From positions 13,998-77,997 of the forward strand of contig CAYWVO010000006.1 in NCBI GenBank assembly GCA_964461835.1: DNA of 64,000 nucleotides, read 5' to 3'. The translations under genes and the position numbers were made by a program. The notes beneath the pieces were generated by a model. That model saw nothing but the letters and a program-made list of their open reading frames with translations. It had not been told where the DNA came from and did no database searches. This stretch comes from an uncultured Ignavibacteria bacterium. Its GTDB lineage: Bacteria > Zixibacteria > MSB-5A5 > WJJR01 > JAJRUJ01. Shown in pieces: positions 2,946 to 53,431 of this stretch (position 1 is the first letter of the stretch; every line of letters starts with the position of its first letter).

Positions 2946-3810
2946 AGACCTGCTCACCGCCATTCGTCCCGCCCAGTGGGTAAAAAATAGTGTCGTGTTC
3001 GCGGCCGTCATCTTTGCGCGCGAATATCAGGATACCGAGAAACTCCTGCTGGCGAGTATCGCATTTGCGTGTTTCTGTTTGATTTCCTCCAGCGTTTATT
3101 TACTCAACGATGTGATCGATGCGCCCCGCGACGCCAAGCATCCCGTTAAGAAAAACCGGCCGATTGCCTCCGGCAGAGTTCCGCCGGGGCTGGCGTTGGG
3201 GGTGGCGATTGTGTTTGCCGCCGGTGGATTTATCACCGGCTATGTCCTGTTGCCGGACGTGTTTCTGTTGACGCTGCTGGGGTATGTTGTGTTGAATATC
3301 GGATATTCACTGAAACTTAAGCACGTGGTTATTCTGGATGTGATGTCGATTGCCGCGGGCTTTGTGTTGCGTGCGGTGGCGGGAGGATTGGCGGTGTCGG
3401 TGCCGATTTCCTCGTGGTTGCTCATCTGCACGACCTTGCTGGCGCTGTTTCTGGGGTTCGGCAAACGGCGGCATGAACTGGTGTTGCTGGGCAATCAAGC
3501 CGACGGACACCGGAATATCCTGACTGAGTACTCTCCGTACTTTTTGGATCAAATGATTGGTGTCGTGACGGCATCCACCGTGGTTGCCTACTGCTTTTAC
3601 ACCCTTTCTCCGGAGGTCCAGGAAAAATTAGGGTCGGACAAGTTGGTATTGACGGTACCGTTTGTACTCTACGGTGTTTTCCGCTACCTGTACTTGATTC
3701 ATCAAAGGCAGGTAGGCGGGAATCCGACCCGCGTAATGCTGACCGACCTGCCGATTCTGATCACCGTGGTGCTTTGGCTGATTTGTGTGTTGATTATTTT
3801 GGGTGCGTAA
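2938..3810 (+). CDS. UbiA-family prenyltransferase, decaprenyl-phosphate phosphoribosyltransferase-like
   Basis: Has the NDxxDxxxD motif (LLNDVIDAPRDAKH) and multiple TM helices. The MGKDLL start sits inside the longer ORF called at 2896. Confidence 0.8.
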   Translation: MGKDLLTAIRPAQWVKNSVVFAAVIFAREYQDTEKLLLASIAFACFCLISSSVYLLNDVIDAPRDAKHPVKKNRPIASGRVPPGLALGVAIVFAAGGFITGYVLLPDVFLLTLLGYVVLNIGYSLKLKHVVILDVMSIAAGFVLRAVAGGLAVSVPISSWLLICTTLLALFLGFGKRRHELVLLGNQADGHRNILTEYSPYFLDQMIGVVTASTVVAYCFYTLSPEVQEKLGSDKLVLTVPFVLYGVFRYLYLIHQRQVGGNPTRVMLTDLPILITVVLWLICVLIILGA

Positions 3811-5039: not shown

Positions 5040-6218
5040 CTACGCCGTGCGCATCTCCCGACCAACCTGCTTGGCGTGGACAATCGCCAGCGTGCGGTAA
5101 ATCATATGCGCAAACTTCGAGTAGGGCATATACCACAACAGGAAAAACACGAACACCAAATGCGCGAAATAGTTGGCATAGGCGACCATCGGCAGCCCGG
5201 TGTACCGCAATAGCCAGGAAAGCATCCCGGTCAGACCCGTTAAGAACATTATGTAGATAAACAAGTAATCGGCGTAGCCGTTGGCGCCGACTTCATCCTT
5301 GTTCTGCCAGCGACGGACGATCAACCAGGTGCTGCCCACCAGCAGGGCAATTCCGCTGAGCGCACCCAGGATTTTCACCGGGTGCGGCGGTTCGATTGGT
5401 ACCTGGAAAAACGAATCCAGCGTTTCAATCCCGAACCAGGTGTGGAGATAATGCGGCAAGAATACGAACAAGAGCACCAAGCCGGTGGTGATCATCGCTC
5501 CGATAAACCCAAAAAACAAAATCATGTGGGCCTTGGCGCGGGGTTTGTTGGTTGTGCATTTGTTGAACTTGGTGTGGGTGAAAATCTCCTTCATCGTCGC
5601 CACAAATGCGGGCACAAACCCCATATTTACCTGCCCGACATCCCGATTGAGCGCGTCCCAGAACCTCTTGAACGCAACCGCAGCGAAGATGAAGATCAGG
5701 ACGTTGCCGAATACAAAGAGTGCATCCACCGTGCTGTGCGGCATAAAAATATTGTAATCGATCGCCGCCTCCGTCATGAACAGATACTCCCCGTCCACCT
5801 GGGGCGCTGAGAGAACGATACTCCCCAAAATGATCAGAATCGGTACCAAAAAGAGCACCGGCAGCGCTTTCGGCGTGGCCAGCGCCTTCCCCATGAATTT
5901 AGGGAACGAATAGTTTTCATAGATATAGGTGCGGATCGCTGCAAGCACATCCCCCGGCCGCGCGCCCCGCGGGCAGTAGGTCGTGCAATCATTGCATTGA
6001 TGGCACAGCCAGACATCCGGGTCGGCGATCAGGCGGTCTTTCTGACCCCAGCCGGCCCAGAGCATCTCTTTGCGCGGGAACGGCCTGTCCTCCGGTGAGA
6101 GATTGCAGACGACCGAGCAGGTCGCACACTGGTAGCATTTTTTCAGTGTCTCGCCCCCATTGCGGCGGACACTGCGAATAAATTCTACATCGGGTTGAAT
6201 CGTTTGGACTTCCGCCAT
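5040..6218 (-). CDS. qmoC: Membrane-bound FeS/heme-b oxidoreductase, QmoC-like. It fuses an HdrC-like 2x[4Fe-4S] ferredoxin domain to an HdrE/NarI-like transmembrane domain.
   Basis: Has two CxxCxxCxxxCP motifs (CYQCATCSVVC…P and CHQCNDCTTYCP). These are followed by roughly 6 TM helices containing conserved His. Length 392 aa. A GAGGAGAG RBS precedes the start. The gene is divergent from sat-aprBA. Confidence 0.65.
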   Translation of the reverse strand: MAEVQTIQPDVEFIRSVRRNGGETLKKCYQCATCSVVCNLSPEDRPFPRKEMLWAGWGQKDRLIADPDVWLCHQCNDCTTYCPRGARPGDVLAAIRTYIYENYSFPKFMGKALATPKALPVLFLVPILIILGSIVLSAPQVDGEYLFMTEAAIDYNIFMPHSTVDALFVFGNVLIFIFAAVAFKRFWDALNRDVGQVNMGFVPAFVATMKEIFTHTKFNKCTTNKPRAKAHMILFFGFIGAMITTGLVLLFVFLPHYLHTWFGIETLDSFFQVPIEPPHPVKILGALSGIALLVGSTWLIVRRWQNKDEVGANGYADYLFIYIMFLTGLTGMLSWLLRYTGLPMVAYANYFAHLVFVFFLLWYMPYSKFAHMIYRTLAIVHAKQVGREMRTA

Positions 6219-6901
6219 TGGTCTCTCCTCGTTGTGTCCCGAAGACCAGTCGCTGTGTCGGTGGTGCCGTTTCGTCGTGCGTATTCTTCCCCGCCGACCT
6301 CTAGTAAAATTATAGACCGGAGCAGGAGTTCAGTCAACGATGATGTTAACAATTTCACAAATACCCCTCAATCATTGTCAACTCTCACGCCGTTATTGAT
6401 ACGGTTTTCAGCCCCCCCGTTTCTCACTTAACAAGATTACAACGGTGTACAGGAATGGAAATTGCTTAGTTATTCGCCGCGCAAATGTGAACCAGTTACT
6501 CATTGCCAAACAACGAGATATGCGTGCACATGAATTAAGCGGGCCCCTTGAGTGTGTTCCAAGAATGAGTTCGCTGTTAGATCAATGAATACCGTTCTCA
6601 ATAATAATTCATAACGTTATATTCAGCAGCAAGTTATAGTTAATGACCATTAAACGGATTGGGAAGACACTATCATTATGGCAAAACATGATGTTTTTGA
6701 CGAATAACTCTGACAATTCCTTGGGAAACATGACTATAATTAACTAAATTTCGGAACAAAAAAGGTCGAGTTTCAGTACAGAAAACAGGCATGAATCATG
6801 GGATTACCTAATCGCAAAAAGTGAGGATGTGGGGCCGGAATCAGTCGAGATAATAATTCCGGAATTTGTGAATATAATAACATGTTTTTGACATCTGCGC
6901 C

Positions 6902-6931
6902 TTGACACTACCCGCGCCGTTTCGTAGGTAT
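6902..6931 (+). promoter_or_regulatory. Putative sigma70-type promoter for sat-aprBA: TTGACA, a 17-bp spacer, then TAGGTAT
   Basis: TTGACActacccgcgccgtttcgTAGGTAT lies about 140 nt upstream of the sat ATG. A second TTGACA sits 14 nt further upstream. The region is AT-rich. Confidence 0.3.
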
Positions 6932-7070
6932 TTGCGGGCAGTTAAGGCAGTCGGGCTCAGGAAAGGAACCGGGCACTTCTAACAGCAAACAATCAGGATC
7001 GGGCACGATTGCAAGACGGATTACGACAAGAAATCATGGTGTTATCATTTAATCCCTCAAGGGAGTAGCA

Positions 7071-8297
7071 ATGCCAGCCTCAACACTCATCAGCCCCCAC
7101 GGGGCGGAAGAACTAAAGATTCTCCTGCTGGACGGGCAGGAACGCGACGCAGAATTGAAGCGCGCGGAAGGACTCCCCAAACTGGTGATGTCCTCGCGGG
7201 AAACCGGTGACCTCATTATGATGGGGATCGGCGGATTTACGCCGCTTGACGGTTTCATGGGTAAGGACGACTGGAAAGGTGTCTGCGCCGACATGAAAAT
7301 GGCCAACGGAACGTTTTGGCCGATTCCGATCACTCTCTCCCATGACGAAAAGGTCGACCCCGGGACGGAATTTTGCCTGGTCTCCGGTGAGACCAACGAA
7401 ATCATGGGCACGATGAAGGTGACCGACTGCTACGAGATCGACAAGGAATTCGAATGCAAAAATGTCTTCACCACTACCGACAGCGAACACCCGGGGGTGA
7501 AGATGGTGATGTCCCAGAAGAAATATAACTTGGGCGGACCGGTGAAAGTGGTTTCGGAAAGTTACTTCCCGAAAGAATTTCCGGATCTGTATCAACGTCC
7601 AGCCGAAAGCCGCAAGACCTTCGAGGAACGCGGCTGGAAGACAATTGCCGCGCTGCAATTGCGTAACCCGATGCACCGTTCGCATGAGTATCTGGCCAAG
7701 ATCGCGTTGGAAGTTTCTGACGGCATTTACATCCACCAGCTCGTGGGGAAATTGAAACCCGGTGATATTCCGGCGGAAGTCCGGGTCAAGTGCATTAACA
7801 CACTTGTGGAAAACTACTTTGTCAAAGAGCGGGTGCTCACCGGCGGGTACCCGCTGGATATGCGTTACGCCGGCCCGCGGGAAGGTCTTCTGCACGCCGT
7901 GTTCCGCCAGAACTTCGGCTGCTCCCACATGATCATCGGTCGCGATCATGCCGGGGTGGGCGATTACTATGGCCCGTTCGATGCCCAGAATATTTTCCAG
8001 GAGCTCTGGGATGGCGCCCTGCAATGCCAGATCCTGCCGATCGACTGGACTTTCTATTGCCACAAGTGCGACGGTATGGCCTCGATGAAGACCTGCCCGC
8101 ATGGCAAAGAAGATCGGTTGTTCCTCTCTGGTACGGCATTGCGCAAGGCACTCTCGGAAGGCGGCGAGGTACCGGACGAGTTCAGTCGGAAGGAAGTCCT
8201 GGCAATCCTGCGCGATTATTACGCGGGGCTCAAGGACGAGGACAGAGTTGAAGTCAAAATGCATAAGGCCGCCACGGGCGATTCGGGGAAAAAGTAA
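7071..8297 (+). CDS. sat: Sulfate adenylyltransferase (ATP sulfurylase)
   Basis: Has the [11 protein letters not shown] and GRDHAGVG motifs. Length 408 aa. An AGGGAG RBS precedes the start. Confidence 0.95.
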
Positions 8298-8777: not shown

Positions 8778-10661
8778 ATGGCGAATTTCGAAACTGTGGA
8801 AGTCTCAACCGACCTGCTGATTGTCGGTGGAGGCATGGCGGCCTGCGGTGCGGCGGTGGAAGCTGCGCACTGGGCCAAAAAGAACGACCTGAAGGTCGCG
8901 CTCGTCGACAAGGCGGCGATGGACCGTTCCGGTGCGGTCGCGATGGGTCTCTCGGCGATCAACCAGTACGTTGACCTGAAGTCCGGTAACAACACAGTCA
9001 AGGATTATGTGGATTATGTCCGCAACGACTTGATGGGTATCACCAGGGAAGACCTCGTGGCCAATATCGCCCGGCACGTCGATTCGACGGTGCACCTCTT
9101 TGAAAAATGGGGTCTGCCGATCTGGAAGGACGAGCAGGGCAATTATGTGCACGAAGGTCGCTGGCAGCTGATGATCAACGGCGAATCCTACAAAGTCGTC
9201 GTGGCGGAAGCGGCCAAGAACGCGCTTGGCACCGACAATATTTACGAGCGTGTCTTCATTGTCGGCCCGATCATGTGTGGTGACAAGTGCGGTGGCGCGG
9301 TCGGATTCTCGGTGCGCGAAAACAAGTTCTACGTCTTCAAGTCTCGGGCTACGCTGGTTGCCCTCGGCGGCGCGGTGCACGTATTCAAGCCGCGGTCGGC
9401 TGGTGAAGGTCTGGGGCGCGCCTGGTATCCGCCGTGGAACTCGGGTTCCTCGGCTTACTTCACCTTGAAGGCCGGCGCTGAGATGACCTGTCAGGAAGTC
9501 CGGTTTATCCCGGTCCGCTTTAAGGACGCGTACGGTCCGGTTGGGGCCTGGTTCCTCTTGTTTAAGTCCCGCGCGACCAATGCCAAGGGTGAAGCCTACA
9601 TGGAGACCCGCCGCCCCGAACTCGAAAACTGGGCGCCGTACGGGAAGGTGAAACCGATTCCGGCAAACCTGCGTAACTGGCTGGGTATGCTGGATATCAT
9701 GGAAGGTCTCGGCCCGATCTACATGCGGACCGAGGAAGCGATTAAGAAGATCGCCGACGAATCGCCCGACGAAAAGGCCTACAAGAAGAAAATGAAAGAA
9801 CTTGAGGCCGAGGCGTGGGAAGACTTCCTGGATATGACCATCTCCCAGGCGATTCTCTGGGCGGCTACCAACACCGCTCCGGAAGAGAAACCGTCCGAAA
9901 TCGCCGCCGCGGAACCGTACTTCATCGGCTCCCACTCCGGCGCCTCGGGTGCGTGGGTCTCTGGTCCGGAAGACTTGCAGAACGACAAGACCAAGAGCGA
10001 CTACTTCTGGGGTTACGTGAACATGGCTACCGTGCCGGGGATCTTCTGCGCGGGTGACGCCTCCGGCGCCTCCAGCCACAAGTTCTCCTCCGGTTCGCAC
10101 GCCGAAGGTCGTATCGCAGCAAAGGGCGCGATTCAGTACCTCGTGAAAGAAAATCCGTCCCTGACTTACGACGATGCGGCGATCGAGAAGATGAAAGAAG
10201 AAATCCTGAAGCCGCTCGACCTGTTTGAACAGCACAAGGCCAGCTCCAGTGATCCGGACATCAATCCGAATTACATGAAGCCGAAGATGTTCATGTTCCG
10301 CCTGCAGAAGATTATGGACGAATACGCGGGCGGCGTGACGGCGCAGTTCACCACCAGCCAGTCCAACCTGGAAAAGGCGCTGGAACTGCTCGCGTTCCTG
10401 AAAGAAGACTCCGAGCATCTCGCAGCGTCCGACCTGCACGAACTGATGCGCTGCTGGGAAAATGTTCACCGGATGTGGCAGGCCGAAGCGCACGTGCGCA
10501 CGATTATGTTCCGCGAGGAGACTCGCTGGCCGGGCTACTACTTCCGCTCTGACACCCCGAAGATCAATGAAGACTGGAGAGTCTTCGTCAACTGCAAAGT
10601 AGATCCGAGTTCCGGTGAGTGGGAAATGATCAAGCGCCCGATTCACACCATTTATGAATAA
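8778..10661 (+). CDS. aprA: Adenylylsulfate (APS) reductase alpha subunit, a flavoprotein
   Basis: Has the FAD-binding N-terminus LIVGGGMAACGAA. Length 627 aa. An AGGAGG RBS precedes the start. Lies immediately after aprB. Confidence 0.95.
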   Translation: MANFETVEVSTDLLIVGGGMAACGAAVEAAHWAKKNDLKVALVDKAAMDRSGAVAMGLSAINQYVDLKSGNNTVKDYVDYVRNDLMGITREDLVANIARHVDSTVHLFEKWGLPIWKDEQGNYVHEGRWQLMINGESYKVVVAEAAKNALGTDNIYERVFIVGPIMCGDKCGGAVGFSVRENKFYVFKSRATLVALGGAVHVFKPRSAGEGLGRAWYPPWNSGSSAYFTLKAGAEMTCQEVRFIPVRFKDAYGPVGAWFLLFKSRATNAKGEAYMETRRPELENWAPYGKVKPIPANLRNWLGMLDIMEGLGPIYMRTEEAIKKIADESPDEKAYKKKMKELEAEAWEDFLDMTISQAILWAATNTAPEEKPSEIAAAEPYFIGSHSGASGAWVSGPEDLQNDKTKSDYFWGYVNMATVPGIFCAGDASGASSHKFSSGSHAEGRIAAKGAIQYLVKENPSLTYDDAAIEKMKEEILKPLDLFEQHKASSSDPDINPNYMKPKMFMFRLQKIMDEYAGGVTAQFTTSQSNLEKALELLAFLKEDSEHLAASDLHELMRCWENVHRMWQAEAHVRTIMFREETRWPGYYFRSDTPKINEDWRVFVNCKVDPSSGEWEMIKRPIHTIYE

Positions 10662-11931: not shown

Positions 11932-12018
11932 CTTCAGCCGTTACTTCGATCGATAGTTCTTAAAGAAATCCGCCAAAGGGTGGACCGCCCGCCGTTAGTC
12001 TTATGAGGAAGTGCCAAG

Positions 12019-13455
12019 TTAGCCCGTTTCATCTGGTGTGTAATAGTTAGTTGGAAAGTGTTTCAAATTGTAAATTGCAAAATCATGGAGTAATATCTGC
12101 TTCCAGTTAATTGGGAATATTTTTAACGGTTGTAATCTATCCAGATATACTGGATCTATTCTAAGCATAGTTTCTCTTCCCCGAGCCCCCCCTATCAGGA
12201 GATTTATCCTCTCAATGCCGAATTCGGTTTCCAAGATTTCCTTGATCTTAGTTGCGAATTCGTCTGCCCCAGTGCTAAAACTCAGAGCAATCCTCAGATG
12301 TCCTGTGCCCCCTGTGCGATCTGTAGGACTAATTCGGCTCCGCACGTCTGCGTAACCTCTAACAAAACTCATTATAACATTCCTATCCACTGTATCAGCG
12401 ATCAGATCAGGGATAATTGGCACCACCCCGCGGCGAGTAATTTGCAAGGAGGATAAATAATCATTAACGGCACATAAGACTGCTGAAGATCCATTAAATC
12501 TAATCCTGATCTTATAATCATAATCAGATACTTTTTGCACCGACGCCCTGTCGCCGGAATCTATTCTATCGAAGTACTCATTTAGAGAATCGCGAATCCC
12601 ATTTACGTCTTTTCGGAAAGCCTTAGCCTGGTCCATTCGGAAGCTCGTAATTCCATCGGCGAGGATGATGCCTTCATTCTCAGTACCCCGGTTAAATACG
12701 CCTTTGTGGTAAATGATTTCTAATAACCTATCATGCACCAATGTCCCCCCGGCGGCTATAAGACCCAAAAGGTATGCTATGTCTGCATTGGGGATAACCT
12801 GCATTGCCTCTATAGCGGCCTGGAATAGACTGTCTAACTCGTTCCTATGAGTAGCCTGCAGTCGTTGAACAAGAGGCGTATCTCCTCCTTGCTCATTGAA
12901 GAACCGCTCATATTGTTCGATAATTGCATAATGGTTTTCGGGCTTAATGGCGCAGGGTGAAGCCCAGATGGCTTCCACCTCTTCTTTCGTACTTCTCAGT
13001 ACACGATCTCTTGAGACGCCTTCAAGGAAGACATTTGCTTCCAGATTATGGGTTATTCCAGAAACAGTCAAATTGGAAGAGCCGATTATAACTTTCAAGG
13101 CAGAAGACTTTCTGAATAAATATATCTTAGAGTGTAATAGTCTTTTGCACTTTTCGTTCACTACTTTCTCTGATCTGTAAAATACTCTGCATTGTGAATT
13201 ACCGGGGATGGTAGCCAATTCCTCGATGATTTGTGGTTCCGTGAAGAACCGCTCTATGTCGAACACAACACGAAGTCTTCCACCCCTTCGCAAAAAAGAA
13301 ACAATATCTTCCCTGAATAGTTCAAATGCATTATACCTGGCAAAAGCAACTAGGAAGAAAATATCATCTGCCCAACGGAGACAATCCCGAATCTGTGACT
13401 CTAATTGTTTTCTTTCGGTGGTCAGAAGGTAAGCTTCCATTTGTTCAACAATCAA
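12019..13455 (-). CDS. PLD-superfamily (HKD-like) nuclease, the putative restriction endonuclease of a Type II R-M pair. Its C-terminal roughly 280-aa domain is uncharacterised.
   Basis: Has the partial HKD signature LHSKIYLF…IIGSSNLT near residue 110. It overlaps the upstream methyltransferase gene by 4 bp. GC is low, about 40-45%. Confidence 0.65.
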   Translation of the reverse strand: MIVEQMEAYLLTTERKQLESQIRDCLRWADDIFFLVAFARYNAFELFREDIVSFLRRGGRLRVVFDIERFFTEPQIIEELATIPGNSQCRVFYRSEKVVNEKCKRLLHSKIYLFRKSSALKVIIGSSNLTVSGITHNLEANVFLEGVSRDRVLRSTKEEVEAIWASPCAIKPENHYAIIEQYERFFNEQGGDTPLVQRLQATHRNELDSLFQAAIEAMQVIPNADIAYLLGLIAAGGTLVHDRLLEIIYHKGVFNRGTENEGIILADGITSFRMDQAKAFRKDVNGIRDSLNEYFDRIDSGDRASVQKVSDYDYKIRIRFNGSSAVLCAVNDYLSSLQITRRGVVPIIPDLIADTVDRNVIMSFVRGYADVRSRISPTDRTGGTGHLRIALSFSTGADEFATKIKEILETEFGIERINLLIGGARGRETMLRIDPVYLDRLQPLKIFPINWKQILLHDFAIYNLKHFPTNYYTPDETG

Positions 13456-14282
13456 TCTCGTTTCCGAAAGATCAAGATGAATTCGTGGACTTTGTTAACC
13501 CTGAATACGCTTGGATACCCCAAAGGCCGCAAATTGTTGTATTCTTGCTTTCTATTCCAGATAATAATATCATCCAATGCAAACCCAATATCTGCCATCA
13601 TCGCCTGAATATCCATATGCAACGGATAACATTTATCCCCTTTTCGAATATCCATCACGATTACACAACAGTACCCATTTGGTTGGGTTGCACGATAGAC
13701 TAGTTCGAAGATTTCCCTAAGTTGTGCAAAGAAATCGGAGTAATCTGTTACGTTTCCAAGGTCACTCGGGGTGTTTCCGTAGTTTCTCCGGTTCTTTCCA
13801 TCAGCCGTACGTTTTTGATTGAGAATATCCCAATATGGCGGTGAGGTTATGGTTAACCTCACCGAATTGGGTTCGACATATTTCGCTAGATTTCTTGCGT
13901 CTGCACGTTTCATTTTCGCGAGAGCACTGTCAATGGTGTTGAATATATCCGTCTGTTGTAATCGTCTTTTGTATAAATCGATAAATGCCGGACTTAATTC
14001 AATTCCCAGACTGCGCCTATCTAATGCAGATGCTGCCAACAAAGTGGACCCGCTTCCGGCAAAAGGATCTAAAACCAGGTCGGATTCGTGGCTAAAAATC
14101 TCAATCAAACGGCTACACAGCATTGTGGGAAACATTGCAGGGTGATTGAGCTTCAACTCCTGCGGTGATTTTCTTATGTCATCCCAAACTGAAACGGAGT
14201 ACTTTAGCCAGGTCCTTCCATCCAACCCTATTGTGTTCTTTGTGGATAATCCCATCATGCAAACTCCTAAACCACTTGCCAT
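13452..14282 (-). CDS. DNA methyltransferase, N4-cytosine or N6-adenine, with gamma-type motif order
   Basis: Motif I/X is HPAMFP…VLDPFAGSGST. It is followed by SPPYWD (motif IV). Length 276 aa. GC is low. Confidence 0.85.
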   Translation of the reverse strand: MASGLGVCMMGLSTKNTIGLDGRTWLKYSVSVWDDIRKSPQELKLNHPAMFPTMLCSRLIEIFSHESDLVLDPFAGSGSTLLAASALDRRSLGIELSPAFIDLYKRRLQQTDIFNTIDSALAKMKRADARNLAKYVEPNSVRLTITSPPYWDILNQKRTADGKNRRNYGNTPSDLGNVTDYSDFFAQLREIFELVYRATQPNGYCCVIVMDIRKGDKCYPLHMDIQAMMADIGFALDDIIIWNRKQEYNNLRPLGYPSVFRVNKVHEFILIFRKRD

Positions 14283-14600
14283 GCTCAGCCGGACAAAAAT
14301 ACGTAAATAGGTGTGCGTTTGGAAATCATATTTTATCTTACTGGGGAAAAGAATTGCAACTGTCTCTCCTTATTGAGGTTAGGGGCCCGCAAATCTATTT
14401 CCGTAAATCGAGACTTTGGTTTGATCCACTGTAACTGATTACGTGGTTTCGACAAACGCAAAATTGGACCCGATTACTTCTCAGCATTCCTGGAGGGCGA
14501 GCCACCCGATTCTTTCACAAGAAGGTTGGTTCTCCCCAGAATTTCCCTGCGCCGGCGCCGGCCAACTCGTATGGTATTTGATATATGTGGGGGGTCACCG

Positions 14601-51476: not shown

Positions 51477-51564
51477 GACAAGTAATTTTGCTTCCAGGAG
51501 AAAAATGATATGGTTATGCTACCAGAAATGAGTATATAATTTTGAAGAATTGCCGGGGACTCAA

Positions 51565-52347
51565 ATGGCGCAGGTATCAAAAATAGAATGGACCGAATGC
51601 ACATGGAATCCGGTGACCGGGTGCGATAAAGTCAGCGCTGGATGTAAATATTGCTATGCAGAGGTTATGGCGCGACGCCTTAAAGCAATGGGGAACCCCC
51701 GATACCTCAATGGCTTCAACATTACGATTCACTGGGAAGTCTTAAACCAGCCGAAGCGATGGCGAAAACCCCGAATTATCTTTGTCAATTCAATGAGTGA
51801 CCTGTTTCATGAAGATGTCCCGCGGGATTTTATTCAAGCCGCCTTCGCGGTTATGAATGATTGCCCACAACACACCTTTCAAGTACTAACCAAGAGACCT
51901 CAAAGAGCCGCAGAGCTGGCGCCAGATTTGCCTTGGTCAAACAATATCTGGCTCGGCACCAGCGTTGAGAATCAACAGACCATACATAGAATACATCAAC
52001 TTCGCCGTATTCCTGCGCATATTCGCTTCCTTTCACTGGAACCGTTATTGGGTCGGATCAATCGCGTGCCATTACAGGGGATTCATTGGGTGATTGTGGG
52101 GGGAGAATCCGGCCCGCAGTCCCGGCCGATGGATCCCGAGTGGGTCAGAGTAATCCGTGATCGATGCTTACGTTATTCCGTGCCGTTCTTCTTCAAGCAG
52201 TGGGGTGGAAAGAACAAGAAGAAAGCGGGCCGGGAACTCGATGGAGAGTTTTGGGATCAGATCCCCGGTAACGGTAATGGGAATTCGGGGGATGTTGTAA
52301 ATGGGCGACAAACTTCCCACAACCTGGGAAACTCCGGAGCATACTAA
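51565..52347 (+). CDS. Phage Gp37/Gp68 family protein (DUF5131, three-Cys-motif)
   Basis: Has the N-terminal [27 protein letters not shown] signature. GC is low. The called ORF begins at a TTG at 51550. Confidence 0.8.
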
Positions 52348-53431
52348 AGCAAAACATCGGATAATTGCGACCTATCTCAAAGCCTGGATTCCAATTTTGT
52401 CCTATCAATTGAGGAATTACGGTATTCCGGGTAATGAACCGGTTATTGTCGATGGCTTCGCTGGACCAGGAATATATGCTGACGGGGTTGAAGGGAGCCC
52501 CATAATCGCCCTCAGAACCGCAGCAAGTTACGATCCACCGATACCAGTTCCTATTCGATTCATCTTCATCGAAAGAGACGAAAATCGGCATGAGTCTCTT
52601 GTTAATTCAATCGAAGATTTGAAATCAGAATATCCTGGATTGGAAATGAGCTGTAACATATTGCCCCCGATATGCGGAGAGTGTGACATCGAAATAAGAT
52701 CCGCAATTGATGTTTGTTTTGGGAAGGATGTGGCCGAGGTAGGGCCGGCGTTTTTCCTGTTAGATCAGTTCGGGTACTCACACGTGCCCATGGAATTGGT
52801 GTCTCTCATTATGAGTCATAAAATGTGCGAGGTTTTGACATTGGTAAATTGGAACGGCATGCAGAGATTCTTGGATCAAGAAAGAATCCGTCCCGCAATA
52901 AACGCCACATATGGTGATGAAGAATGGCATGTGGTGTTCGACCTTTCTCGCGATATGCGCGCCGCCTATATGCTGGAAGAATATGAGAAAGCCCTGTATA
53001 GAAACGCCGGCATAGAGTATGTGCTGCATTTTACCATGTGTGATCGGGGAAACAGGCCGATTTATTGGCTCTTTTTTGGGACGAATCACATCGAGGGACT
53101 GCGGGCCATGAAGAAGGCCCTTATTGACGAAGCCCCAAATGGCGACTATCGGTTCTCTGACAAATATGACTCTGGCAATTTGCCTCTACTTTCTGATTAT
53201 GATTACAATATTGATGCAAGCCATCTCCTGGCTCATTTCCGAGGACAGACAGTACAAACATCCGAGGTGGAAAAATTCGTTCTTCTCAAAACCCCTCATC
53301 GCCTCTTCAGGAAAGCTCTACGGGAGTTGTTGCGATCTGAAGAGCTGATCATAATCGAGTCTCCCAGTAATTACCGGCCTGGCACCTTCCGGAAAGATGA
53401 CCTGAAAAATATAGTCATTCGATTTAATTAG
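52301..53431 (+). CDS. Three-Cys-motif partner protein TcmP-like
   Basis: It sits immediately downstream of, and overlapping, the DUF5131 gene. The N-terminus W..P..HT.AKH.II..YL is consistent with the TcmP family. Length 376 aa. Confidence 0.7.

What the first reader, a model, noticed from the sequence alone, without database searches (positions are those of the whole stretch)
11940..14530. Low-GC Type II R-M island. The PLD-family nuclease has an uncharacterised roughly 280-aa C-terminal domain.
The segment is about 40-45% GC against about 58% in the host, so it is probably horizontally acquired. The methyltransferase is gamma-type with SPPY (motif IV), suggesting N4-cytosine. It overlaps a 478-aa protein by 4 bp. 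That protein has an N-terminal PLD/HKD-like nuclease motif (LHSKIYLF…GSSNLT) and a variant eighth position (R rather than D). This is the BfiI/NgoFVII-style architecture of a PLD catalytic domain plus a separate DNA-recognition domain. The C-terminal two-thirds has no motif I can recognise and may be a new DNA-binding or specificity module.
Basis: partly seen in the sequence, partly recalled or inferred. Interest (0 to 1): 0.5.

Follow-up and report, generated by a model that had tools for sequence, protein, structure and literature searches.

The report
Restriction nuclease borrowing a homing-endonuclease fold
This is a small, horizontally acquired restriction-modification gene pair whose cutting enzyme joins a BfiI-type phospholipase-D nuclease to a catalytically dead LAGLIDADG homing-endonuclease fold that most likely reads the DNA, a design built in the laboratory but one I could not find described in nature.

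Summary
Two co-directional minus-strand genes (MTase 13452..14282, nuclease 12019..13455) form the lowest-GC stretch of the window (42.8% against a 54% mean).

- **MTase:** it has the PF01555 N6/N4 fold with an invariant SPPY. It is a circular permutant of the beta class, not a classical gamma enzyme.
- **Catalytic positions:** both LAGLIDADG helices are recognisable (YLLGLIAAGG, FVRGYADVRSR). Their catalytic positions are G/N/S and R/K in all 41 members aligned, so the domain is dead as a nuclease.
- **Distribution:** the family is rare (68 clusters in 1.84 billion proteins) and found only in uncultured lineages. It always lies directly downstream of the same MTase, and no third gene is conserved.

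Best reading: a BfiI-like, two-gene Type II R-M system in which a domesticated LAGLIDADG scaffold replaces the B3-like recognition domain. This is a new variant of a known kind. The recognition site and the DNA binding itself remain untested.

The parts
13452..14282 (-). DNA methyltransferase gene. The maximal ORF is 276 aa; the likely start is ATG 14258/14255 (267-268 aa). It is a circularly permuted beta-class N6/N4 MTase with motif I DPFAGSGST (14043..14069) upstream of motif IV SPPY (13833..13844).
   Evidence: Pfam PF01555 3.9e-35 in two stretches. PDB 2zie 1.2e-31 in two swapped pieces. 52-66% identical partners in all 13 related loci that have upstream DNA, with 82 of 267 columns invariant including TSPPYW.
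12019..13455 (-). Nuclease gene. It is 478 aa from TTG 13455, or 473 aa from ATG 13440 as in public gene calls.
   Evidence: Full-length AF2 model has pLDDT 85.6 and pTM 0.86.
12946..13455 (-). N-terminal single-HKD PLD nuclease domain (aa 1-170). The catalytic motif H108-x-K110...G125-S-S-N128...N137-x-E139 lies at about 13039..13134.
12793..12945 (-). Helical linker (aa 171-221), including a 26-residue helix (aa 194-219) that joins the two domains.
   Evidence: AF2 secondary structure.
12022..12792 (-). C-terminal double-motif LAGLIDADG-like domain (aa 222-478). [quoted passage not shown]
12745..12774 (-). Degenerate LAGLIDADG motif 1, YLLGLIAAGG (aa 228-237). The catalytic position is G236.
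   Evidence: The helix spans 224-236 in the model. This position is G/N/S/A/H/R and never D/E in 41 members.
12334..12366 (-). Degenerate LAGLIDADG motif 2, FVRGYADVRSR (aa 364-374). The catalytic position is R372.
   Evidence: The helix spans 358-372 in the model. This position is R/K in 40 of 41 members and never D/E.
14283..14525 (-). Upstream intergenic region (44% GC) with one promoter-like site (TTGCAA-18-TAAAAT, 14359..14330). This is the presumed operon promoter region.
   Evidence: The count of such sites is no higher than in shuffled sequence, so this is only a candidate.

Best explanation
This is a two-gene Type II restriction-modification cassette acquired by horizontal transfer. 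The small MTase (probably N4-cytosine) marks host DNA.

The nuclease works like BfiI. Two N-terminal single-HKD PLD domains dimerise to form one active site, which cuts DNA without metal ions through a phospho-histidine intermediate. Sequence specificity comes from the C-terminal domain.

That domain is not the B3-like domain of BfiI/NgoAVII. It is a domesticated, monomeric double-motif LAGLIDADG homing-endonuclease scaffold. It has lost both metal-binding acids and so can only bind DNA, not cut it.

Shown: the gene pair and its strict linkage, the PLD fold with intact catalytic residues, the LAGLIDADG fold, the loss of catalytic acids, rarity, and foreign composition. Inferred: dimerisation, metal independence, DNA reading by the LAGLIDADG saddle, blocking of cleavage by methylation, and the methylated base.
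For: - **Linkage:** the MTase lies directly upstream and co-directional in all 13 related loci that have upstream DNA. The genomic contexts are unrelated and span at least 9 lineages, and no third gene is conserved.
- **C-domain fold:** it matches only LAGLIDADG enzymes and WhiA by two independent methods, with weak sequence support from LAGLIDADG_3 in 14 of 50 members.
- **Dead catalytic positions:** the model's helices end exactly at the motif positions (236 and 372) where canonical enzymes carry the catalytic Asp/Glu. No member has an acid there. T. maritima WhiA, the known dead LAGLIDADG, likewise has Arg and Gly at these positions (PMC3384342).
- **Charge:** the C-domain is on average strongly basic across the family (+9.3, against -4 for the PLD domain). 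Arginines are invariant or nearly so in or next to its beta strands: R432 in all 41 members, and R388, R425 and R427 in the 11 closest.
- **By elimination:** PLD cores such as Nuc are non-specific, and BfiI/NgoAVII obtain specificity from their C-terminal domain (PMC4267654).
- **R-M behaviour:** the MTases (52-66% identity) are more conserved than the nucleases (30-48%). Two loci have a frameshifted nuclease beside an intact MTase.
Against: - There is no experiment and no DNA-bound model, so DNA binding by the LAGLIDADG-like domain is inferred.
- For WhiA, the review argues that the dead LAGLIDADG domain may have given up DNA binding (PMC3384342).
- The window's own C-domain has a net charge of -1, unlike the family mean of +9.
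- LAGLIDADG scaffolds normally read 14-22 bp asymmetric sites. A single 267-aa MTase suggests a short and probably symmetric site, and how the two fit together is unclear.
- The recognition sequence could not be inferred.
- The two halves of the domain are not detectably similar by profile comparison, so the pseudo-dimer claim rests on the predicted structure.
- REBASE could not be searched.
Confidence: 0.7

Rival explanations
1. The dead LAGLIDADG-like domain does not read DNA. It serves as a protein-protein, oligomerisation or regulatory module, as proposed for WhiA. Specificity would then come from elsewhere, for example a complex with the MTase.
For: The review of WhiA argues that its LAGLIDADG domain may have surrendered DNA binding (PMC3384342). 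The window protein's C-domain has a net charge of -1.
Against: No other candidate DNA-binding domain exists in either protein. The family-wide C-domain charge is +9.3, and arginines are conserved in or near the beta strands. All characterised PLD REases carry their recognition domain at this same position. WhiA has a separate HTH domain, which is absent here.
Confidence: 0.12
2. The cassette is a homing-type selfish element rather than a defence system. The LAGLIDADG scaffold keeps a long (14-22 bp) target, the PLD domain supplies cleavage, and the MTase protects the occupied locus.
For: The fold derives from homing endonucleases. The family has a sporadic, HGT-like distribution with low GC in every host. 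Recombinase or integrase genes lie nearby in L004-L006.
Against: No sequences flanking the cassette are conserved between loci apart from one closely related pair. There is no intron or intein context. A constitutive partner MTase is the hallmark of R-M systems, not of homing. All insertion contexts differ.
Confidence: 0.1
3. The nuclease depends on modification (Type IV/IIM-like), and the adjacent MTase has another role.
For: The best structural match of the PLD domain is SauUSI, a Type IV enzyme. PADLOC gives weak mREase_IV hits. One distant long protein (P0067) joins the same C-domain to the modified-base readers MrcB_N and EVE.
Against: Strict, abutting or overlapping co-directional linkage with one highly conserved MTase in every locus would be suicidal for a methyl-dependent enzyme of the same specificity. 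No helicase or ATPase domain is present.
Confidence: 0.05
4. The LAGLIDADG-like domain is still an active nuclease with a non-canonical active site, so the protein has two nuclease activities.
For: D370 (invariant in the 11 closest members, near-invariant family-wide), D379 and E428 (both variable outside the close subgroup) lie in or near the second motif.
Against: Both canonical metal-binding positions are non-acidic in all 41 members. One is a conserved Arg/Lys, which would repel a metal ion. WhiA has the same substitutions and does not cut DNA (PMC3384342).
Confidence: 0.03

Closest known systems
BfiI (Type IIS, PDB 2c1l) and its relative BmrI
   Different: BfiI's recognition domain is B3-like (EcoRII-N fold); here it is a LAGLIDADG fold of about 255 aa. 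To my recollection the BfiI system uses two MTases for an asymmetric site, whereas here there is one small MTase.
R.NgoAVII / R.CglI (Pfam RE_NgoFVII, PDB 4rct)
   Different: NgoAVII/CglI have a B3-like C-domain and need a DEAD-family ATPase N-protein encoded as a third gene (PMC4267653/4). No third gene is conserved here.
Monomeric double-motif LAGLIDADG homing endonucleases (PI-PfuI, I-Tsp061I, I-DmoI, PI-SceI)
   Different: Both catalytic acids are missing. The protein is not intron- or intein-encoded. It is fused to a different nuclease, and sequence identity is only 12-19%.
WhiA/DUF199
   Different: WhiA is a transcription factor with a C-terminal HTH and no nuclease domain, and it is universal in Gram-positive bacteria. 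This family is rare, mobile and fused to a PLD nuclease.
Engineered chimeras: inactive I-SceI-FokI (PMC2685105), inactive I-SceI-PvuII (PMC3258161), BmrI PLD domain-C.BclI (PMC2094064)
   Same: They follow the same design principle: a dead LAGLIDADG scaffold as the binding module, or a PLD domain as the cleavage module, joined by a linker.
   Different: Those are laboratory constructs, whereas this is a natural, conserved family with a cognate MTase. The specific PLD plus LAGLIDADG combination did not appear among the engineered constructs I found.

Membership tests
PLD-superfamily nucleases (Nuc/BfiI type) | PLD fold | tested here: met
PLD-superfamily nucleases (Nuc/BfiI type) | Single HxK...GSxN motif with catalytic His and Lys | tested here: met
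   H108, K110, G125-S-S-N128 and N137-x-E139 are present. The H and K are invariant and the other positions nearly so in 41 family members.
PLD-superfamily nucleases (Nuc/BfiI type) | Homodimer forming one active site, with metal-independent cleavage through a covalent intermediate | not testable with these tools
   This is inferred from BfiI/NgoAVII (PMC4267654). No dimer model or biochemistry was possible.
BfiI / NgoFVII-type restriction endonucleases | C-terminal B3-like (EcoRII-N-like) DNA-binding domain | tested here: not met
NgoAVII/CglI ATP-dependent systems | Third gene for a DEAD-family ATPase (N/H protein) | tested here: not met
   No gene other than the MTase is conserved across 14 loci.
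Type II restriction-modification system | Adjacent cognate MTase and nuclease genes | tested here: met
   The MTase is directly upstream in all 13 loci that have upstream DNA, and the genes abut or overlap in 7 loci.
Type II restriction-modification system | The nuclease and MTase recognise the same sequence, and methylation blocks cleavage | not testable with these tools
   No methylome or biochemistry is available. K-mer avoidance was inconclusive.
LAGLIDADG homing endonucleases | [quoted passage not shown] | tested here: met
   This rests on a predicted structure only. Sequence similarity between the two halves is not detectable.
LAGLIDADG homing endonucleases | Acidic metal-binding residue at the C-terminal end of each LAGLIDADG helix | tested here: not met
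   The positions are G236 and R372. No D/E occurs at either position in 41 members.
LAGLIDADG homing endonucleases | Encoded in an intron or intein, or as a free-standing homing gene | tested here: not met
   It is the C-terminal domain of a PLD protein in an MTase operon.
Beta-class N6/N4 DNA methyltransferases (PF01555) | Homology to the family | tested here: met
   PF01555 3.9e-35. TTHA0409 (2zie) 1.2e-31.
Beta-class N6/N4 DNA methyltransferases (PF01555) | Motif order IV-VIII, then TRD, then X-I-III | tested here: not met
   The order is X-I...IV-VIII. The two halves align to TTHA0409 in swapped order, which shows circular permutation. Collinear relatives at about 30% identity exist on plasmids.
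N4-cytosine methyltransferases | SPPY/SPPF motif IV and m4C product | tested here: inconclusive
   SPPY is invariant in 15 partner MTases, and N4C MTases 8s9n/8s9m are the second-best PDB hits. The product base was not determined.

The most novel reading that the evidence does not exclude
The dead LAGLIDADG saddle still reads a long (10 bp or more) asymmetric sequence. The family would then be natural rare-cutting, metal-independent Type IIS-like enzymes, nature's version of the I-SceI-FokI chimeras. The small MTase would protect them by methylating a short sub-site inside the long target. Their specificity could be reprogrammed using existing meganuclease engineering knowledge.
Probability: 0.2. 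Interest if true: 0.8.

Novelty: new variant of a known kind. Interest (0 to 1): 0.55.

Why it matters
- **Restriction-enzyme folds:** the catalytic folds known in restriction enzymes overlap with the homing-endonuclease HNH, GIY-YIG and PD-(D/E)XK families. The LAGLIDADG fold is absent from the 2008 classification of Type II enzymes (PMC2441816) and from the 2012 review's list of restriction relatives (PMC3384342).
- **Second domestication of LAGLIDADG:** this family would be an independent case after WhiA. It would also be the first in which the scaffold is kept as the targeting module of another nuclease.
- **Modularity of PLD nucleases:** it shows that the BfiI-type PLD core is a swappable cleavage module in nature. 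The Salipiger plasmid partner has the same core with yet another C-terminus.
- **Practical value:** the family offers a small, possibly metal-independent nuclease with a well-understood, engineerable binding scaffold.
- **Limits:** the system itself is otherwise an ordinary two-gene R-M cassette, and nothing here is yet tested at the bench.

Tried and rejected
- **Pfam on the C-domain alone at E<=10:** no hit.
- **PDB sequence search with the single protein and with an 11-sequence profile:** only chance-level hits for the C-domain.
- **Profile-profile comparison of the two halves of the C-domain**, to prove the internal duplication and the motif register: not significant (probability 1%, out of register).
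- **Recognition-site inference from palindrome avoidance in 173 kb of host flanks:** only generic CTAG and GGCC depletion, so uninformative.
- **Terminal repeats or shared insertion sequences around the cassettes:** none in the window, and none shared between loci except one closely related pair.
- **PADLOC on the long proteins that carry the same C-domain:** no hits.
- **AFDB fold search:** the library was unavailable.
- **Plasmid and phage collections:** no full-length family member, only PLD-domain matches.
- **Cluster look-up for an organism name:** none on record.
- **Promoter and terminator scans:** counts no higher than in shuffled sequence.
- **Literature searches** for LAGLIDADG together with PLD, HKD, NgoFVII or restriction: no report of this architecture. 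The library lacks most subscription journals, and REBASE could not be queried.
Full report
**What is in the sequence**

On the minus strand lie a 276-aa ORF (13452..14282) and a 478-aa ORF (12019..13455). Together they are 42.8% GC against a window mean of 54%. This is the lowest-GC 2264-bp stretch anywhere in the 64 kb. GC3 is 0.42-0.44, against 0.60-0.76 in the flanking genes (aprA, peptide deformylase, thioredoxin, the GNAT gene and the CxxCxxCC-domain gene).

Two details need correcting:
- The 4-bp TTGA overlap depends on a TTG start. Public gene calls of the identical protein (P0001, 473 aa) use ATG 13440, which leaves an 11-nt gap.
- The MTase probably starts at ATG 14258/14255, 5 nt after a GGAG.

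No flanking repeats, tRNA-type landmarks or conserved ends mark the insertion.

**The methyltransferase**

It belongs to the N6/N4 family PF01555 (3.9e-35), but Pfam matches it in two pieces. Against the solved beta-class enzyme TTHA0409 (2zie, 1.2e-31), query residues 19-100 align to chain residues 200-278, and query 114-236 align to chain 23-139. It is therefore a circular permutant of the beta class, with motif X-I ahead of IV-VIII.

Permuted derivatives of beta-class MTases have been described before (Bujnicki 2002, from my own recollection; not retrieved here). Collinear relatives at about 30% identity occur on plasmids, annotated only as 'DNA methyltransferase'.

SPPY is invariant in 15 partner MTases, and the next-best solved relatives are N4-cytosine MTases. 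m4C is a fair guess but unproven.

**The nuclease N-terminus**

Residues ~17-165 match PLDc_2 (8.4e-9) and RE_NgoFVII (8.6e-6), both above Pfam's thresholds. They also match SauUSI and BfiI by sequence.

In 41 diverse members the catalytic H and K are invariant and the G-S-x-N and N-x-E positions nearly so. The HKD Asp is absent in all of them, as it is in BfiI, so the 'variant eighth position' is a subfamily trait.

**The C-terminal domain**

It has no Pfam hit at E<=10 and no PDB sequence hit even with a profile. By eye it contains YLLGLIAAGG and FVRGYADVRSR, which resemble LAGLIDADG motifs, and I tested that idea.

- An AF2 model of aa 186-478, built from an 11-sequence alignment, is confident (pLDDT 85.2, pTM 0.83). 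[quoted passage not shown]
- Foldseek, an independent method, lists 44 LAGLIDADG structures first, with probability 1.00 for the top 42 and 0.82-0.84 for two I-OnuI variants.
- At the sequence level, 14 of 50 family members hit Pfam LAGLIDADG_3 (best 6.4e-5) and one hits Hom_end.

The two motif helices end at residues 236 and 372 in the model, the positions where active enzymes carry the metal-binding Asp/Glu. In 41 members the first position is G/N/S/A/H/R and the second is R/K in 40 (S in one). Neither is ever acidic.

T. maritima WhiA, the known domesticated LAGLIDADG protein, likewise has Arg and Gly at these positions and does not cut DNA (PMC3384342). The domain is therefore a dead LAGLIDADG scaffold.

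**Family and context**

The family is rare. There are 12 hits among 5.8 billion clustered proteins, 68 clusters at 50% identity among 1.84 billion proteins, and 15 loci among 185,579 species genomes. All 15 are MAGs of uncultured lineages: Deferrimicrobium, Marinimicrobia, Ignavibacteria, Scalindua, Zixibacteria, LCP-89, Calditrichaceae, Pirellulales and Stahlbacteria. There are no full-length members in the plasmid or phage collections.

In every locus with upstream DNA (13 of 13), the permuted MTase lies directly upstream on the same strand, often abutting or overlapping the nuclease gene. The surrounding genes all differ and no third gene is conserved. This excludes an NgoAVII/CglI-type ATPase partner (PMC4267653).

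The cassette has lower GC than both flanks in every host with adequate flanking sequence. The MTases are far more conserved (52-66% identity, 82 of 267 columns invariant) than the nucleases (30-48%). This suggests one shared or very similar specificity. Two loci carry a frameshifted nuclease next to an intact MTase, a decay pattern typical of R-M systems.

**Mechanism**

By analogy with BfiI and R.NgoAVII, the PLD domains would dimerise into a single active site and the C-terminal domains would bind specific DNA as monomers (PMC4267654). I therefore infer a homodimer with one PLD active site flanked by two LAGLIDADG-like recognition domains, and cleavage blocked by the partner MTase.

Support for DNA reading by the C-domain is indirect:
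- It is the only candidate domain.
- Across the family it is strongly basic (+9.3, against -4 for the PLD domain).
- R432 is invariant in all 41 members, and R388, R425 and R427 are invariant in the 11 closest. All lie in or beside the beta strands.

The caveats are these:
- The window's own C-domain has a net charge of -1.
- WhiA's dead LAGLIDADG domain may not bind DNA at all.
- A scaffold that normally reads 14-22 bp sits oddly with a single small MTase.
- The site could not be deduced.

**Comparison with what is known**

The system works like BfiI but fails the B3-domain criterion of the BfiI/NgoFVII family. It has the fold of LAGLIDADG homing endonucleases but fails the catalytic-residue and genetic-context criteria. 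It resembles WhiA as a domesticated dead scaffold but has no HTH and a different function.

The 2008 classification of Type II REases lists only BfiI and NgoAVII subfamilies in the PLD superfamily and never mentions LAGLIDADG (PMC2441816). My literature searches found no natural PLD-LAGLIDADG fusion.

The design does exist as laboratory constructs: inactive I-SceI fused to FokI or PvuII, and the BmrI PLD domain fused to C.BclI (PMC2685105, PMC3258161, PMC2094064). A Salipiger plasmid pairs a distant relative of the permuted MTase module with a PLD protein that shares only the nuclease core and has an unrelated C-terminus. This supports domain swapping on a common PLD core.

**Verdict**

The 'unknown' domain is resolved as a catalytically dead LAGLIDADG fold. 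This is a new variant of a known kind (PLD-type Type II R-M) with a recognition module not previously linked to restriction enzymes in the literature I could search.

It is of moderate interest to specialists in restriction enzymes, homing endonucleases and nuclease engineering.

Noticed in passing
window 51550..53431 (+): This second low-GC patch (0.46-0.48) carries an overlapping gene pair. One is a 265-aa three-Cys-motif/radical-SAM-mobile-pair-like protein (TIGR04471, 2.1e-24, below cutoff). The other is a 376-aa TcmP 'three-Cys-motif partner protein' (TIGR04474, 2.1e-53, above cutoff). It is probably another horizontally acquired two-gene module of unknown function.
   Followed up: partly
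window 6219..7070: This is an ORF-free spacer of about 850 bp with low GC (~0.47). It lies between a polytopic membrane protein with N-terminal Cys clusters (5040..6218, -), which I take to be QmoC-like, and a probable sulfate adenylyltransferase gene (7071..8297, +). A probable aprA lies at 8778..10661. All three names are my reading of the translations, not tool hits. If they are right, the host has dissimilatory sulfur metabolism. The content of the spacer was not examined.
   Followed up: no
L019 about 6790-6810; L020 about 3290-3310: The nuclease gene is split between two reading frames while the upstream MTase is intact. These are either decaying R genes that leave orphan MTases or MAG assembly errors in A-rich runs.
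   Followed up: partly
P0067 (1735 aa), P0069, P0070, P0072, P0077 (about 1050-1240 aa), P0073 (905 aa): The same LAGLIDADG-like C-domain sits at the C-terminus of much longer proteins (E 5.8e-8 to 3e-4). P0067 also has two MrcB_N stretches and EVE domains, which read modified bases. P0070 has a weak LAGLIDADG_3 hit within the homologous region. The N-terminal ~800 aa of the others match nothing in Pfam or PADLOC. The module may be reused in other nucleic-acid conflict systems.
   Followed up: partly
L014 4141-4869: One host (a Zixibacteria MAG) carries an additional MTase-like gene in the normal beta motif order, just upstream of the permuted MTase-nuclease cassette.
   Followed up: no
L024 (Salipiger profundus plasmid pTPRO3) 1390-5022: An 832-aa fusion MTase (Eco57I/N6_Mtase gamma module plus a permuted PF01555 module) is followed by a 371-aa PLD protein. 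Its C-terminal ~220 aa match nothing in Pfam and are unrelated to the LAGLIDADG-like domain. This may be another uncharacterised recognition module on the same nuclease core.
   Followed up: partly
window plus 12 host flanks (173 kb): CTAG (O/E 0.20) and GGCC (O/E 0.68) are depleted in all 13 hosts that carry the cassette. Both tetramers are commonly avoided in bacteria generally, so this is not evidence for the recognition site.
   Followed up: partly
window 59000..60500: This is a third dip in GC (0.47-0.48) within the window. It was not examined.
   Followed up: no
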